DNA of 64,000 nucleotides from a virus (taxonomy: Duplodnaviria > Caudoviricetes). The notes beneath the pieces were generated by a model. That model did no database searches and was not told the origin of the DNA. It saw only the letters and a program-made list of their open reading frames with translations. The position numbers and the translations under genes are program-made. The stretch spans positions 64,001-128,000 of the IMG/VR virus record IMGVR_UViG_3300044719_000253; one strand, 5' to 3'. This document shows positions 51,116 through 55,457 of this stretch, piece after piece. Each line of letters opens with the position of its first letter. Position 1 is the stretch's first letter.

Positions 51116-51346
51116 TTACGCGGCATCGGGCAAGGCCATCATCCGTGCGTAGATCGCGGGGTCCACCGGCAGAGTAGGTGCTGCCTCGATGAAGTTGGCG
51201 GCCGTCGAGATCCACGGTTTGGTTTTGGCCAGATTGCCCGAGATTTCCCGCGGGCGAGCGGTCGACATCGCGCTGCGGTACGGCGCCATGGCTTCGAATC
51301 GTGCAGCCATGTAATCGTCCAGCAACAACGTCAAATTCATTTCGTC
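51116..51346 (-). CDS. Non-virion RNAP beta' N-terminal subunit, exon 2 (76 aa)
   Basis: Begins GAC GAA ATG (D-E-M), completing NADYDG|DEMN after intron removal. Confidence 0.85.
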   Translation of the reverse strand, partial: DEMNLTLLLDDYMAARFEAMAPYRSAMSTARPREISGNLAKTKPWISTAANFIEAAPTLPVDPAIYARMMALPDAA

Positions 51347-51677
51347 CATCCGACTCTCGCGAGTCTGTCCAGTTAGTTCGCGACACTAACCCGGTGCGAT
51401 TCCTAGCACCCGCTGTAGGCTTTCCCTACAGATCAGACCATATCTTCATCCTTTCGGATGCGTTCCATTTCGGGACTGCTAGTCCCTACGTGCGATGCAC
51501 TGGTCGTTGAACTTTCCTCTGTCCTAGAGGCTTAGCTGCGGATTACCCAATCTTTATCATTGTTACCATACCTGAATGATTAGTTCAGCCACACAAATAT
51601 TCCGACTTGTGTTTGGTAGATAAAGCTCTAAGGATGTTCCCGGCAATTAGAAAACGTTTAAAGACGGCAACGAGTTT
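51347..51677 (-). mobile_element. Group I self-splicing intron, 331 nt, no endonuclease ORF
   Basis: 5' exon ends in U and the intron ends in G. P1 GACGGU/GCCGUC with a U.G wobble at the splice site; P10 UCGUU/GACGA; P-Q-R-S-like elements AAUUGCCGGGAA, AAUCCGCAGC, GUUCAACGACCA, AAGAUAUGGUC; P7 GACCA/UGGUC. Confidence 0.92.
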
Positions 51678-52958
51678 ACCGTCGTAGTCAGCATTGAACC
51701 CCCTGACGGTCAAGTCCGACAACGAGATGGTTTGGTCAGCGGCATCCGGCTTGACCCGGGTGATGTAGAACAACTGCATCGACCCCAAGCCCAGCGAGGG
51801 ATTACGCTGGAAGATCGCCGGCAACCCACGCAGATTCGAGCCCGCAATCAGCTCGTGACGCGATTCACTGATCAATTCCTTGAACAGTTCATCCAAGAGC
51901 GGGTTGTACTCGGTGGCGTAGCGGTTGAGGAACCGCCAGATCTCGTTGGGCAACCACTGGCGGTCTTTCAGCTTGCGTGCCAAGTGCAACCGCAGCAAGC
52001 CCACACCGACGCCCCACGGGATGTGCAGTTCGCGATGGTAGTGTTGCACCGGCAGCTTGGTGATCACCGCCCGCGCCGACCAATCGCACCGGGTCGCAGC
52101 CAAGTGTTTGCGCGAGATGCCTTCCTTCGACGAGAACGACTTTTTGTTGAATTCTTCGTAATACGTCGCCATGTTGGCAATCGCCCGCACCACCCGGTTC
52201 TGCTTCACCGCATCGGTGTACCCGTTGAGCGGATCATCCAGGCCGATCAGGGACTCAATCGCATCGATCGCAATCGGCACGTTCGAATCCACATACACGG
52301 CCATGTCGGTGTCTTCCACCACCAGCAAGGTCTTGTTGGGCAATGCCATGTACTTCGAGAAGATCTTGCCGCGGTTCATTTGCAAGAACTTCAGGATGTG
52401 GTGCACTTCGTTCGGGTTGTCTTGCTTCTTCTTGCGGAAGTCGCTGATGGTGAGCAGCTTGGTGATGATTTCATCGAACTTGGCCACGAAGTTATTATAA
52501 CCGCGTTGCCGATCCAAGCCCAAGGCCAGCAGTTGCGCGTACACCTTCGGCGGTTTCTCCGGCACCGGGTACTTGGTGTCACACAACCACTGGATGATGT
52601 TGAATCGCCCTTTCTTGAAATGGTTGGAGAGAATGGTCCAGACGCGCGGATTGATGAGCAGAGCCACGCGGGCTGGTTGCCGCAGCCACACGATCGATTC
52701 CAGCTTTTGATCGCGCACGTTCACCACCGGTTTGTTGCAGTGTTCGCAAATTACGCCGAGGTATTTCTTGCCACGCGGTCCTTCCGAACAGTCACAGCGT
52801 GGGGTGTTGGTCAACACGTCATTCGGCTGATAACGTGTAAAGATCTTTTCTTTAAACGCTTTTAAGGCGTCGTGGGAACATTCCTGGAAATCGTTAATGA
52901 TGATCGGATCACGGTGTGAGCGTTGGGCCCACAAGTCGTCATGGCTGACGAGCCGCAA
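51678..52958 (-). CDS. Non-virion RNAP beta' N-terminal subunit, exon 1 (phiKZ gp55-like; spliced product 503 aa)
   Basis: Zinc finger CDC..CEHC, GISRKHLAATR, ARAVI, RNPSL, FNADYDG. Confidence 0.9.
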
Positions 52959-53032
52959 ATAAGTGCCGATGATACACCTCTTTTAATCAAGAGAATAAAT
53001 AATGAGTGATACCCCAAGTTGCCTGCCTAAAG

Positions 53033-53069
53033 AAAAAAAAGTGAGACCCGCAAGGGCCTCACTTTCTTT
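53033..53069 (-). terminator. Intrinsic terminator after chmA
   Basis: AAAGTGAG../..CTCACTTT stem around a GCAA-containing loop; T-run on the minus strand. Confidence 0.8.
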
Positions 53070-53092
53070 CTTCAGCGAACTGCTAGTACCGA

Positions 53093-55099
53093 TTAGTACG
53101 TGCGCGTATGCGCCATGCCGCGGTAGCCGGCCGTGTTGCCCGTGTAGCTCGGCGCGCTGGTGAACATGGTGGTGTGGAAGTTCGACACCAGTGCACCGGC
53201 TTGGGCCAGGCCGTACGGCTGACGCACGGTCATGCGATCGTCCGAGTTCGGGATATCGATCTTCGGTTGGAAGTTCGATTGGGCGATCGATTGGTCCATG
53301 GCAGTCAGGAAGTCCGGATGGAACGTCTTGTGGATCGAGATGCCGGTCACCGTCGGGTGCACGACTTGCTCGATCAGTTTCAGACGCTCAGCCAGCTGGT
53401 AGTCGTTGCTACCGCCCCAGGTGGCGGCCCAGCGCTTGCCGATGTCCGGCTGCTCGTGGCCTTTGGCGTTGAGCAGGTACAGCAGGTCGATGTTGCGCAG
53501 ATCGTTGATGCGGCCCTGGTCGTCGGTGTAGAAACCGTTCAGCACGCGCTCGGTACGCGGCAGGACGATTTGACGGCTTTGGGTTTGGTTGAAGATCTGG
53601 CTAAAACGGCCATCGGTCATGGCGTCCATCGCGTTGATGATCGCTTGACGCGCACCTTCGACTTCGCTGGCTTCGGCGAACACGCGCAGGAACCAGGTAT
53701 CGGCGCCGGCCACCGGCACGTCGATCGAGAAGGCCGGATACGGCTGCATGATGAAGTTCACCAGACGGTAGAACTCGTCATTGCCGAAGCTGGCTTCGTG
53801 GGTCGGGAACGGGCTGACGGTGTCGCCGATCTTGAGGCCATAGTCGTAGTTCGTGGCGCCCAGATCACGCGGACGGAAGTTGCTGCGACCGCCACCGCCG
53901 TGCAGTTGCAGATGCGCCGGCAGGAAGTTGCGCAGCCACTGCGGACCGTACTTGGTCTGGTCGAACAGCGGCAGCATCGTCGAGATCAGCAGCAGCACGT
54001 TGCCCAGGTCCGGCAGCACGCCCATGTCGAAGCCCGAGATGGTGATTTCACCCGAGTATTCCTGGGTGTCATTGCCGCTCGGCTGCGCGCCGCCGACCAT
54101 GTAGCGGTTGCGGCGACCTTGGACCGGATCGATGTTGAGCGTGGTGTACGCCAGCACGCGACCGATTTCCATCACGCCCGCGGTGTTTTCGGTCTTGTCC
54201 TGCTGCGCCACGCCGGACTGGCGTTGCTGTTCCGAACGGAAGTCGGTGACGATTTCGCAGCGGATCGGCAGACCAGAAGCGTCGAACGCTTCGACCGGCG
54301 GATTGGCTTGGTCCTGGTTCATGTGGATCGAGTCGATCAGCAGCGACGAGCTGTCGGCAGCGACGTCGGCCAGGCGGTTGTACTTGAAGCCCGGCGTTTT
54401 GGTTTCCAGTTCAGCCGCGCAAGCGCGCATCGCGTTCATGAACAGACCAGCGACCTTGTACGGATCGTCGATCTTGAAGTTGACCGGCACCGGGCTCCAG
54501 TCGGCCGAATAGATCTCGGCTTGCTGCACGACCGCTCCGACGCGTTGACGGATGATCGTGGCCAGCGCGTCGTCGGCCAGCGTGGCCGGGGTACGCGGCG
54601 CGGTGACACGTTCTTGGCCATAACCGCCGTACAGTTCATTGCCACGGGTGGCCGGGGGCGGCGCCATGTCGGAAGCCAGCAGCAGGGTGTGGTAAGCCAC
54701 GCGGTTGTCGCCGCGGTCGGCGATCAGCAGGATCATGGCGATCTTATTGCTCAGGCCCGTTTGGGCGCTGCTGATGGCGTCACGGGCCACCGGCACGACG
54801 CGCACGTTCCAGCCGCTCAGTTCGTTGTCCTTCTCCTTTTCGTAGAAGTCTTGCAGCTTCTTCGTGAGTTCGCCCAGATCGCGACCGTTGTTGTCACGAC
54901 CTTGGTTGAGGGCGCCGCCGCGGAACAGCAGGCCGGCACCGGCTTGACGCGGGGCGCCACCCACGGGGGCACCTTGCGGCGTTTGGTAGTTCGGCTGCGC
55001 TTGACCCTGGGCCGCTTGCGCTGCGCCGCCGTACATGTCGTTCGGCTGCTGCTGCGTGGCGTTCGGGTTGGCGTTGCCTTGGGCGATTTGACCTTTCAT
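53093..55099 (-). CDS. chmA: Chimallin, major nuclear shell protein (phiKZ gp54-like), 668 aa
   Basis: Start MKGQ (AAAGGA RBS); Q/A/G/P disordered N-terminus, AYHTLLL motif, size, extreme codon bias, and position between the gp52-like gene and nvRNAP beta'. Confidence 0.85.
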   Translation of the reverse strand: MKGQIAQGNANPNATQQQPNDMYGGAAQAAQGQAQPNYQTPQGAPVGGAPRQAGAGLLFRGGALNQGRDNNGRDLGELTKKLQDFYEKEKDNELSGWNVRVVPVARDAISSAQTGLSNKIAMILLIADRGDNRVAYHTLLLASDMAPPPATRGNELYGGYGQERVTAPRTPATLADDALATIIRQRVGAVVQQAEIYSADWSPVPVNFKIDDPYKVAGLFMNAMRACAAELETKTPGFKYNRLADVAADSSSLLIDSIHMNQDQANPPVEAFDASGLPIRCEIVTDFRSEQQRQSGVAQQDKTENTAGVMEIGRVLAYTTLNIDPVQGRRNRYMVGGAQPSGNDTQEYSGEITISGFDMGVLPDLGNVLLLISTMLPLFDQTKYGPQWLRNFLPAHLQLHGGGGRSNFRPRDLGATNYDYGLKIGDTVSPFPTHEASFGNDEFYRLVNFIMQPYPAFSIDVPVAGADTWFLRVFAEASEVEGARQAIINAMDAMTDGRFSQIFNQTQSRQIVLPRTERVLNGFYTDDQGRINDLRNIDLLYLLNAKGHEQPDIGKRWAATWGGSNDYQLAERLKLIEQVVHPTVTGISIHKTFHPDFLTAMDQSIAQSNFQPKIDIPNSDDRMTVRQPYGLAQAGALVSNFHTTMFTSAPSYTGNTAGYRGMAHTRTY

Positions 55100-55193
55100 G
55101 CTATTTCCTTTTTTGTACAAGTTGTTGTGTAATTTGTTTGCGCAAACAAACTGTTTATTGAACACTTTCCTGGGTGTTCCTATTAGTGATATA
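55100..55193 (-). promoter_or_regulatory. chmA early promoter (TATATCACTAA at 55183-55193) and hairpin-containing 5' leader
   Basis: Third copy of the 11-mer; leader hairpins GAACAC/GTGTTC and the palindrome TTTGTTTGCGCAAACAAA. Confidence 0.65.
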
Positions 55194-55457
55194 GGCGTAT
55201 TTTTGTTTAGCGCCAGATTTCGAGAGCATACCGCAATAGGAACCATGGGACGCCGATTGCGTCTTCCACTATACAATGGGGTAGGTGATGTATTTTTTTA
55301 CTTGAACATGGCTTTCCCTTTCGTACCAATCCCCGAGTTCTGAACCACTCGCTCAAGCGATACACAGATGGAGTATTTTTCTAACACTATTCCACCCTGT
55401 CCGTGGTGCAATCGTATGTCCCTGCCCCCATTCCTTTTTCCATGATGAGTCCCGTTT

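What the first reader, a model, noticed from the sequence alone, without database searches (positions are those of the whole stretch)
51347..51677. ORF-less group I intron inserted inside the RNA polymerase catalytic motif
Seen: the beta' frame reads NADYDG then drifts into 30 unrelated codons and a stop. Removing 51677..51347 restores NADYDG-DEMN and 76 further residues. The splice-site U.G wobble in P1, P10, the P7 pair GACCA/UGGUC (a compensated variant of the usual GACUA/UAGUC), P9 hairpins and the terminal G are all present. No homing endonuclease lies in or beside it. Known: phiKZ-family RNAP genes often carry endonuclease-encoding group I introns. Inference: the third metal-binding Asp exists only after splicing, so nvRNAP activity, and with it middle and late transcription, depends on this ribozyme. 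It may be a minimal domesticated intron, a timing checkpoint, or an immunity marker against a homing endonuclease acting in trans.
Basis: partly seen in the sequence, partly recalled or inferred. Interest (0 to 1): 0.75.

Follow-up and report, generated by a model that had tools for sequence, protein, structure and literature searches.

The report
Endonuclease-free intron in phage polymerase gene
A 331-base self-splicing-type (group I) intron with no endonuclease gene does interrupt the catalytic metal-binding motif of this giant phage's RNA polymerase gene. Related giant phages carry similar introns in the same motif, one at exactly this spot, so it is a new example of a known thing.

Summary
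Window 51677..51347 (- strand, 331 nt) matches Rfam RF00028 (group I intron) at 65.2 bits against a cut-off of 50, E 1.4e-15. It has P1 with a U.G pair, a 5-bp P10, P3-P9, a GACCA/UGGUC P7 and a terminal G. Removing it joins NADYDG to DEMN. Three close uncultured relatives (70-91% aa identity) have no intron and read NADYDGDEMN or NADFDGDEMN without a break.

The host gene is the phiKZ gp55 homologue (nvRNAP beta'-N) and sits next to chimallin. The 226-kb record holds only one copy. No HNH, HNH_3, HNH_5, GIY-YIG, LAGLIDADG_3 or NUMOD1 match was found in the record, which is about 83% complete.

This is not a new kind of element. Serratia phage 2050HW has an ORF-less intron at the same G|D site. 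phiLBG22 and Salmonella SPLA5c have ORF-less introns in or just before the motif. phiKZ, PA7, Goslar and a 93%-identical relative carry HNH-bearing introns 6-18 nt from each other in the same motif. The solved phiKZ gp55 structure is the spliced product.

Most likely this is a selfish, self-splicing IA-type intron without its own endonuclease. A shielding role against sibling HNH nickases is possible but untested. Splicing itself was not observed. A duplicate first-stage note (e1-5336352) covers the same DNA.

The parts
51678..52958 (-). Exon 1 of the nvRNAP beta'-N gene (phiKZ gp55 homologue), 427 codons ending ...RGFNADYDG. The last base, U at 51678, is the 5' splice-site U. The true start codon is uncertain: TTG 52958 comes from the ORF finder, and a conserved ATC ATC lies at 52973..52968.
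   Evidence: tblastn to gp55 homologues in 305 phage records, best FLC9 42% E 2e-100; Pfam RNA_pol_Rpb1_2 weak hit at residues 380-427; start-codon comparison.
51347..51677 (-). Group I intron, 331 nt, ORF-less, GC 47% against 56-60% in the exons.
   Evidence: RF00028 at 65.2 bits, E 1.4e-15, model positions 1-253 of 253; helices all paired; GC.
51116..51346 (-). Exon 2: DEMNLTLLLDDYMAARFEAM...LPDAA, 76 codons plus a TAA stop at 51118..51116.
   Evidence: tblastn places it directly after the exon 1 match in FLC9, RP12, PhiPA3, Phabio and others; it matches residues 441-496 of PDB 7OGP chain A.
51663..51683 (-). P1: exon GACGGU (51683..51678) plus intron AA pair with intron UUGCCGUC (51670..51663). 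U51678.G51668 is the splice-site wobble.
51669..51673 (-). P10 guide: intron UCGUU pairs with the first five bases of exon 2, GACGA (51346..51342).
51461..51656 (-). P3 (CGUUUU 51656..51651 with GGAACG 51466..51461), enclosing P4 (51645..51639 with 51542..51537), the branched P5/P5a/P5b/P5c domain (51635..51545) and P6/P6a (51536..51511).
   Evidence: compensatory changes in P3, P5, P6 and P8 across seven chimallivirus introns.
51436..51505 (-). P7 (GACCA 51505..51501 with UGGUC 51440..51436), enclosing P7.1 (51500..51490), P7.2 (51486..51472), the P3 3' strand and P8 (51460..51447). J8/7 reads GAAGAUA.
   Evidence: The P7.1/P7.2 pair is the subgroup IA hallmark (established knowledge).
51352..51431 (-). 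Peripheral 3' hairpins: P9 (51431..51413), P9.1 (51410..51393), P9.2 (51390..51372) and an extra hairpin GACUC-GCGA-GAGUC (51365..51352) that the compared introns lack.
51347..51347 (-). Terminal G (omega G), the last intron base.
   Evidence: This is the only G whose use restores the frame and the motif seen in intronless relatives.
51585..51587 (-). In-frame stop codon 30 codons into the intron, within P5c. It ends translation of unspliced RNA at 457 aa.
53093..55276 (-). Upstream neighbour: chimallin (phage nuclear shell protein). It fixes the synteny chimallin - beta'-N as in phiKZ gp54-gp55.
   Evidence: Pfam PF25677, E 8e-21; phiKZ annotation.

Best explanation
Window 51677..51347 (- strand) is a subgroup-IA-type group I intron with no open reading frame. 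It sits in the single-copy gene for the beta'-N subunit of the non-virion RNA polymerase (phiKZ gp55 homologue) of an uncultured nucleus-forming jumbo phage (chimallivirus).

Proposed mechanism:
1. On the pre-mRNA the intron folds into the P1-P10 architecture.
2. A free guanosine attacks after U51678, which pairs as U.G in P1.
3. The freed exon 1 end, held next to exon 2 by a 5-bp P10, attacks after the terminal G51347.
4. The ligated mRNA encodes a 503-aa, 57.6-kDa protein with an intact NADYDGDEMN metal-binding loop.
5. Unspliced RNA gives a 457-aa product that lacks the third Asp and the last 76 residues, so an active nvRNAP needs splicing.

In evolutionary terms it is most likely a selfish intron of the family that repeatedly invades this motif in chimalliviruses. 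It either lost its HNH endonuclease gene or never had one. It persists because an imprecise deletion inside the catalytic loop would be lethal.

Shown: the ribozyme signature, the boundaries, the restored frame, the absence of an ORF, the single gene copy, and the allelic states in relatives. Inferred: the splicing activity and the evolutionary history.
For: 1. RF00028 scores 65.2 bits against a gathering score of 50, E 1.4e-15, with a full-length model match.
2. Every core helix pairs, and U.G, P10 and omega G are in place. MFE folding recovers P1, P6a, P7, P7.1, P7.2, P8 and the four 3' hairpins (P9, P9.1, P9.2 and a further one).
3. Across seven chimallivirus RNAP-gene introns, 30 of 53 predicted pairs keep pairing through two-sided changes. 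The window's P7 C-G replaces U-A on both strands.
4. Intronless alleles in relatives L006 (91% aa), L007 (74%) and L008 (70%) read NADYDG-DEMN or NADFDG-DEMN without a break. In FLC9, RP12, PhiPA3, Phabio and others the exon 1 and exon 2 matches abut exactly.
5. Among these alleles only the window has GGT (U at -1) at the junction. The others have GGC or GGA, which fits the U.G requirement.
6. The gene is single-copy in the 226-kb record.
7. PDB 7OGP chain A is the fusion 'PHIKZ055 + PHIKZ056.1'. PMC8287921 places DFDGD at 417-421 of gp55 and makes the following residues strand beta6 of the double-psi barrel. Native phiKZ gp55 is given as 56 kDa (PMC4666361), matching the 55.7 kDa computed for the spliced form against 47.9 kDa unspliced.
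8. The intron holds no ORF. The record gives no match to HNH, HNH_3, HNH_5, GIY-YIG, LAGLIDADG_3 or NUMOD1, and none to the HNH protein of the sibling phage L005.
9. The same family includes forms with an endonuclease gene, with a stub, and without one: phiKZ, PA7, L005 and Goslar (HNH); T2P (37-codon stub); 2050HW, phiLBG22 and SPLA5c (none).
Against: - No RNA data.
- A long-read transcriptome study of phiKZ reported no spliced reads for its predicted introns under its conditions (PMC10914365). In vivo splicing in this phage group therefore rests mainly on protein-level evidence.
- The record is about 83% complete, so an endonuclease gene could lie in the missing part.
- A weak Endonuclease_7-like hit (16.4 bits, below cut-off) exists far away in the genome.
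- 'Lost its endonuclease' cannot be told apart from 'never had one'. No remnant was found, and no intron closer than about 60% identity was found.
Confidence: 0.85

Rival explanations
1. The intron also serves as a shield. By splitting the motif DNA it destroys the target site of I-HmuI-like HNH nickases carried by introns of sibling phages that co-infect the same host. It is then kept by selection as immunity, or is moved in trans by such an enzyme. This is compatible with the best explanation and adds a benefit to it.
For: - Three allelic states occur among phages with more than 90% identical beta'-N proteins: empty (L006), an HNH_3+NUMOD1 intron at NAD|YDG only 9 nt upstream (L005), and the ORF-less intron at G|D in the window.
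- PhiPA3 gp210, an intron HNH nickase in a chimallivirus RNAP gene, damages intron-minus competitors, and the authors state that acquiring the intron would protect (PMC11620839).
- ORF-less introns that share a target site with free-standing endonucleases ('collaborative homing') are described (PMC3984707).
Against: - No endonuclease target site was mapped.
- No free-standing endonuclease was found in the record.
- Co-occurrence of these phages in one host is not shown.
- Some I-HmuI-type enzymes also cut intron-containing alleles (own knowledge), so protection is not guaranteed.
Confidence: 0.25
2. The intron is a domesticated regulator. Its splicing rate sets the timing or amount of nvRNAP and so gates middle and late transcription.
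For: Only the logic that active beta'-N needs splicing, and the general literature on condition-dependent splicing of phage introns cited in PMC10914365.
Against: - The closest relatives (L006, L007, L008) and most chimalliviruses sampled do without any intron at this site.
- Presence is patchy. Insertion sites vary over 18 nt, and endonuclease content varies. This is the pattern of a mobile parasite, not of a conserved regulator.
- No conserved extra element suggests a sensor.
Confidence: 0.05
3. The intron is dead or splices poorly. The gene is then a pseudogene in a defective or misassembled metagenomic genome, or the enzyme is assembled from two separate polypeptides of 457 aa and 77 aa.
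For: - An in-frame ATG (51349..51347) directly precedes exon 2, so a 77-aa product is formally possible.
- Jumbo-phage RNAP subunits are split elsewhere (PMC4666361).
- No RNA evidence is available.
Against: - The ribozyme core is intact and scores above the curated cut-off.
- The junction codon GGT is fitted to P1.
- The ATG has only a poor GAGAG upstream and lies next to a stable hairpin.
- A break between the second and third Asp would cut the Mg loop and separate strands beta5 and beta6 of the double-psi barrel (PMC8287921).
- Both exons remain open and conserved.
Confidence: 0.05

Closest known systems
Group I intron of Serratia phage vB_SmaM_2050HW (MF285618, Moabitevirus), lying between its two CDS annotated 'RpoBC'
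   Same: Same gene (nvRNAP beta'-N) and exactly the same insertion site (NCDFDG|DML, after GACGGT). Same P1 3' strand GUUGCCGUCUU. ORF-less, 296 nt, RF00028 at 58 bits.
   Different: The ribozyme is only about 57% identical. It lacks the window's extended P5 branch and the 3' hairpins P9.1, P9.2 and the further one. Its P7 is the usual GACUA/UAGUC. The host phage is a distant chimallivirus of Enterobacterales. The record does not annotate the intron.
phiKZ gp55/gp56/PHIKZ056.1 intron (predicted by Mesyanzhinov 2002, as cited in PMC10914365)
   Same: Same gene, same catalytic motif, same intron family (RF00028 at 75.6 bits; the aligned core is 58% identical). The functional protein is the spliced product (PDB 7OGP chain A).
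   Different: phiKZ's intron is 1372 nt and carries the HNH_3+NUMOD1+NUMOD4 endonuclease gp56. It is inserted 15 nt upstream (N|ADFDGD), so all three Asp lie in exon 2.
PA7 / phiLBG22 intron pair in the same gene
   Same: Intron in the same motif. phiLBG22's copy is ORF-less (362 nt), like the window's.
   Different: The site is 3 nt downstream (NADFDGD|QLN). The PA7 copy carries an I-HmuI-like HNH gene 3' of the core. Their cores are 92% identical to each other but only about 55% identical to the window's.
PhiPA3 gp210 intron (vRNAP beta gene) and its interference competition (PMC11620839)
   Same: A group I intron at catalytic acidic residues of a chimallivirus RNAP gene. The window's genome also has an intron at that homologous DD site.
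   Different: A different gene (virion RNAP beta). It encodes an active HNH nickase. The window's two introns encode nothing.
ORF-less phage introns with 'collaborative homing' (PMC3984707)
   Same: A small ORF-less group I intron in a conserved site of an essential phage gene.
   Different: Those systems have a free-standing endonuclease that targets the intron insertion site. None was found here.

Membership tests
Group I intron (Rfam RF00028) | Covariance-model score at or above the curated gathering score | tested here: met
   65.2 bits against 50, E 1.4e-15, model positions 1-253 of 253.
Group I intron (Rfam RF00028) | 5' splice site after a U that forms a U.G wobble in P1 with the internal guide sequence | tested here: met
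   Exon GACGGU pairs with intron nt 10-15 GCCGUC; U51678.G51668.
Group I intron (Rfam RF00028) | Terminal G at the 3' splice site, and P10 pairing of the guide with exon 2 | tested here: met
   G51347; UCGUU pairs with GACGA, 5 bp.
Group I intron (Rfam RF00028) | Conserved core: P3-P8 and P4-P6 domains, P7 with flanking J6/7 and J8/7 | tested here: met
   All helices pair. J6/7-P7 GUUCAACGACCA and J8/7-P7' GAAGAUAUGGUC match the consensus. Compensatory changes are seen across seven related introns.
Group I intron (Rfam RF00028) | Removal restores an uninterrupted, conserved reading frame | tested here: met
   Intronless relatives read NADYDGDEMN. Exon matches abut in other phages.
Group I intron (Rfam RF00028) | Guanosine-dependent self-splicing | not testable with these tools
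This needs RT-PCR or an in vitro assay.
Subgroup IA (phage-type) group I introns | Extra hairpins P7.1 and P7.2 between P7 and the 3' strand of P3 | tested here: met
   GUGC-AUC-GCAC and GGGACU-AGC-AGUCCC at 51500..51472. No subgroup-specific model was available, so the assignment rests on this hallmark (own knowledge of the Michel-Westhof scheme) and on the nearest DNA matches being introns of Bacillus, Vibrio and Enterococcus phages.
Mobile (homing) group I intron | Encodes a homing endonuclease | tested here: not met
   331 nt with no ORF. No similarity to the sibling phage's HNH protein anywhere in the record.
Collaborative-homing pair (ORF-less intron plus free-standing endonuclease) | A free-standing homing endonuclease gene in the same genome, classically adjacent, that cuts the intron-minus site | tested here: not met
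   No HNH, HNH_3, HNH_5, GIY-YIG, LAGLIDADG_3 or NUMOD1 match in the 226 kb. The neighbouring genes have no such domain. There is only a sub-threshold Endonuclease_7 hit about 100 kb away. The record is about 83% complete, so absence is not proven.
Chimallivirus nvRNAP beta'-N subunit (phiKZ gp55 family) | Sequence homology to gp55 across both exons, and the NADxDGD motif | tested here: met
   tblastn of exon 1 against 305 phage records, phiKZ-genus phage PA7 at E 1e-69. Exon 2 matches PHIKZ056.1 and 7OGP chain A residues 441-496. The intronless sibling L006 matches 7OGP_A at E 4e-82 across the junction.
Chimallivirus nvRNAP beta'-N subunit (phiKZ gp55 family) | Synteny directly downstream of chimallin | tested here: met
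   PF25677 chimallin at 55276..53093. The order is the same in phiKZ, PA7 and Goslar.

The most novel reading that the evidence does not exclude
Within one lineage of uncultured chimalliviruses (beta'-N more than 90% identical) the polymerase Mg-binding motif exists in three states: empty, an HNH-armed intron at NAD|YDG, and this unarmed intron 9 nt downstream. The unarmed intron may be kept because it breaks the target of the sibling's nickase. That would make it a ribozyme serving as anti-homing armour in phage-against-phage interference inside shared phage nuclei.
Probability: 0.25. Interest if true: 0.5.

Novelty: new member of a known kind. Interest (0 to 1): 0.3.

Why it matters
For annotation: gene callers will report a truncated 457-aa 'RNA polymerase beta' plus an orphan 77-aa ORF, as already happened for Serratia phage 2050HW and Salmonella phage SPLA5c. 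The correct product is a 503-aa spliced beta'-N.

For biology: it adds a data point to a pattern that has not been written up in the papers I found. The NADxDGD loop of the chimallivirus nvRNAP is a hot spot with at least four insertion positions within 18 nt, occupied by related IA-type introns with, without, or with remnants of HNH genes. That pattern is what intron-endonuclease warfare of the kind shown for PhiPA3 gp210 would be expected to leave behind. The trio window / L005 / L006 would be a natural test set for whether an unarmed intron protects against an armed neighbour. The intron itself is an ordinary member of a well-known class.

Tried and rejected
- megablast of the locus against GenBank phages found no match. 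There is no close cultured relative.
- An exact 23-mer of the window's P7 region found nothing in IMG/VR, so no near-identical copy of this intron was found elsewhere.
- A second related-loci run with an alignment returned the same four relatives. The alignment was too shallow to reach further.
- One literature search with a loose setting returned nothing useful.
- Alternative 3' splice sites, for example after G at ...ACUGGACAG, would insert TRESRM into the motif. Intronless relatives contradict this, so they were rejected.
- I tested whether the window's intron is simply the L005 or phiKZ intron minus its ORF. It is not: the cores are only 52-59% identical and the insertion sites differ.
- The Goslar and SPLA5c junctions could not be resolved by eye and are left open.
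- The weak Endonuclease_7 hit was examined. It is a 166-aa CxxC protein and not a convincing homing endonuclease.

Full report
**What is in the sequence.** On the - strand an ORF runs from 52958 to 51585 (457 aa). It reads ...LTVRGFNADYDG, then 30 codons with no similarity to anything, then a stop. A second frame starts at 51349 with M-DEMNLTLLLDDYMAARFEAM... and ends at 51116. Removing 51677..51347 (331 nt) joins GACGGT to GACGAAATG and gives NADYDG-DEMN in frame. The one loose point is that exon 2 holds 76 residues including DEMN.

**Is it a group I intron?** Yes.
- Rfam's RF00028 model matches 51687..51413 over its full length (positions 1-253). It scores 65.2 bits against a gathering score of 50, with E 1.4e-15 over 3 kb and 2.9e-14 over the window. 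It is the only Rfam hit in the 64 kb.
- I located every helix by hand and checked the pairing by script.
  - P1: exon GACGGU plus intron AA pair with UUGCCGUC, with U51678.G51668.
  - P10: intron UCGUU pairs with exon 2 GACGA.
  - P3: CGUUUU with GGAACG.
  - P4: present, with one bulged C.
  - P5: a branched P5/P5a/P5b/P5c domain.
  - P6/P6a: present.
  - P7: GACCA with UGGUC.
  - P7.1 and P7.2: two hairpins between P7 and the 3' strand of P3.
  - P8: CAUCC-GAAA-GGAUG.
  - Four 3' hairpins, then the terminal G at 51347.
- Plain MFE folding finds most of these helices unaided (z = -2.5).
- P2 is absent.
- The P7.1/P7.2 pair is the hallmark of subgroup IA, the usual phage type. That assignment rests on established knowledge; I had no subgroup-specific model. 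The nearest DNA matches are introns of Bacillus, Vibrio and Enterococcus phages, 74-81% identical over P3-P6.
- In an alignment of seven introns from chimallivirus RNAP genes, 30 of 53 predicted pairs survive two-sided changes.
All six other introns have GACUA/UAGUC, and the window has C-G in place of U-A.

**Are the boundaries right?** Homology settles this.
- IMG/VR holds four close relatives of the host gene.
- Three have no intron and read straight through the proposed junction: L006 (91% aa identity) GFNADYDGDEMNLTLL, L007 (74%) NADYDGDEMNGTLL, and L008 (70%) NADFDGDEMNGTLL.
- In Burkholderia phage FLC9, Ralstonia RP12 and RP31, PhiPA3, Phabio and others, the tblastn matches of exon 1 and exon 2 abut to the base.
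- Among the close alleles only the window uses GGT for the junction glycine. The others use GGC or GGA. This supplies the U needed for the U.G pair.
- Other candidate 3' sites would insert residues into the motif and are excluded.

**What gene is it?**
- The gene lies directly downstream of chimallin (PF25677, E 8e-21), as phiKZ gp55 follows gp54.
- Exon 1 matches gp55 homologues in 305 phage records.
- Exon 2 matches PHIKZ056.1 and residues 441-496 of PDB 7OGP chain A.
- The intronless sibling L006 aligns with 7OGP_A at E 4e-82 right across the junction.
- That PDB chain is named 'PHIKZ055 + PHIKZ056.1', meaning the spliced product.
- PMC8287921 places DFDGD at 417-421 of gp55, between strands beta5 and beta6 of the catalytic double-psi barrel. 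That numbering exists only after splicing: exon 1 ends at N415.
- Native gp55 is listed as 56 kDa in PMC4666361. I compute 55.7 kDa for the spliced form and 47.9 kDa for the unspliced ORF.
- The window's spliced protein would be 503 aa and 57.6 kDa.
- The 226-kb record holds one copy only.

**Endonuclease content.**
- The intron has no room for an ORF.
- The downstream genes (72, 209, 169, 190 and 416 aa) and the upstream chimallin show no nuclease domain.
- Six-frame searches of the whole record found nothing for HNH, HNH_3, HNH_5, GIY-YIG, LAGLIDADG_3 or NUMOD1, and nothing for the HNH protein of the sibling phage L005.
- One sub-threshold Endonuclease_7 match (16.4 bits) lies in a 166-aa CxxC protein about 100 kb away and is not convincing.
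- The record is estimated to be 83% complete, so absence is likely but not proven.

**Context in relatives.** This is what sets the novelty. The Mg-binding motif of this gene is a repeated landing site.

| Phage or locus | Insertion site | Intron length | Endonuclease content |
|---|---|---|---|
| phiKZ | N\|ADFDGD | 1372 nt | gp56 (HNH_3, NUMOD1, NUMOD4) |
| T2P | same as phiKZ | not measured | 37-codon HNH stub |
| L005 (93% aa to the window) | NAD\|YDGDEMN | 1211 nt | 264-aa HNH_3/NUMOD1 ORF |
| Window | NADYDG\|DEMN | 331 nt | none |
| Serratia phage 2050HW | NCDFDG\|DML (same site as the window) | 296 nt | none |
| PA7 | NADFDGD\|QLN | 1524 nt | I-HmuI-like HNH 3' of the core |
| phiLBG22 | NADFDGD\|QLN | 362 nt | none |
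| Goslar | exon 1 ends NADF | not resolved | HNH; RefSeq annotates 'Intron_gpI' |
| Salmonella SPLA5c | just before DFDGD, junction not resolved | not resolved | none |

- The 2050HW intron scores 58 bits on RF00028, has the same P1 3' strand GUUGCCGUCUU as the window's, and is annotated only as two 'RpoBC' CDS.
- The phiLBG22 core is 92% identical to PA7's.
- Apart from that pair, all these introns are only 52-63% identical to one another, whatever their site.
- The window's intron is therefore not a recent deletion derivative of any sampled armed intron.
- Its GC content (47%) is well below that of its exons (56-60%).
- The same genome has a second ORF-less intron in the virion RNAP beta gene, after ...GSDRDD (RF00028 at 43 bits, E 6.5e-9). 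This is the site homologous to the PhiPA3 gp210 intron (PMC11620839).

**Most likely explanation.**
- It is a self-splicing, selfish IA-type intron without its own endonuclease. It sits where imprecise loss would be lethal, and it is removed from the pre-mRNA by the standard two-step guanosine-initiated pathway.
- The mix of armed, stub-bearing and unarmed relatives matches the known gain-and-loss cycle of homing endonuclease genes (PMC3984707).
- The intron's patchy distribution argues against a conserved regulatory role. Its closest siblings lack it.
An armed intron sits 9 nt away in a 93%-identical phage and an empty site in a 91%-identical one. PMC11620839 shows that such nickases can cripple intron-minus competitors in this phage family. 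But no target site is known, and no trans-acting enzyme was found in this genome.

**Weak points.**
- I have no RNA evidence.
- One long-read transcriptome study saw no splicing of the predicted phiKZ introns under its conditions (PMC10914365), although the protein data above say the spliced gp55 exists.
- In chimalliviruses, transcription occurs inside a protein shell away from ribosomes (PMC12908238). Splicing here would therefore proceed uncoupled from translation. This is a general point and not specific to this intron.

**Verdict.** The element is a new member of a known kind. Its value is mainly in correcting the annotation and as one allele of a natural three-state polymorphism that could be used to test intron-mediated protection.

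Noticed in passing
G000:C1:162152-162477 (- strand; L004:1501-1826), 34 kb beyond the window's end: A second ORF-less group I intron in the same genome (RF00028 at 43 bits, E 6.5e-9). It splits a virion-RNAP beta-like gene right after ...APGSDRDD, the site homologous to the PhiPA3 gp210 intron.
   Followed up: partly
L005:5273-6483 (IMGVR_UViG_3300038443_002533): The closest relative (93% aa) carries a different, 1211-nt intron 9 nt upstream (NAD|YDGDEMN), with a 264-aa HNH_3/NUMOD1 endonuclease ORF at L005:5329-6123. L006 (91% aa) has an empty site. Three allelic states therefore occur in one lineage.
   Followed up: yes
L018:2723-3018 (Serratia phage 2050HW, MF285618); L016:2708-3069 (phiLBG22, OU343167); L022:~2376-2760 (Salmonella phage SPLA5c, OR413585): Cultured chimalliviruses carry unannotated ORF-less group I introns in the same motif. 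2050HW has one at exactly the window's G|D site. Their records list two separate 'RpoBC' or 'RNA polymerase beta subunit' CDS, or no annotation at all.
   Followed up: partly
L015:2711-4234 (PA7) against L016:2708-3069 (phiLBG22): The same intron core (92% identical) at the same site (NADFDGD|QLN) occurs with an I-HmuI-like HNH gene in the Phikzvirus PA7, and without any ORF in phiLBG22, a ~302-kb phage whose exon 1 hit scores like those of the PhiPA3-sized Pseudomonas phages. This is a clean armed/unarmed pair.
   Followed up: partly
L021:2390-4200 (Escherichia phage Goslar, NC_048170): Goslar's exon 1 ends NADF, and the annotated exon 2 starts (R)LMLNTTM. The DGD codons (GACGGTGAC, L021:3842-3850) stand alone between the HNH ORF and a second, partial group-I-like core (RF00028 at 16.7 bits, E 0.07). 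This may be twin introns around a 9-nt mini-exon. The splice sites are not resolved.
   Followed up: partly
window 52958-52980 (- strand): The TTG that the ORF finder takes as the start (52958) is CTG or CTA in relatives L005 and L006. Conserved in-frame ATC ATC (52973..52968; GTC ATA in L008) follow a GAGGTG ribosome-binding site, and phiKZ's MGLYAKVVDH aligns with (I)GTYLRLVSH. The gene may start at a non-AUG AUC/AUA codon.
   Followed up: partly
window 53020-53075 (- strand): A GC-rich hairpin (GTGAGGCCC-TTGC-GGGTCTCAC) followed by a T run sits directly after the chimallin stop codon. It looks like an intrinsic terminator between chimallin and the beta'-N gene.
   Followed up: no
G000:C1 ~11.0-11.6 kb (L024:1174-1674, - strand): A 166-aa protein with two CxxC pairs gives a sub-threshold Endonuclease_7 (His-Me finger) match (16.4 bits, E 0.0015). 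It is the only nuclease-like signal found when looking for free-standing homing endonucleases.
   Followed up: partly
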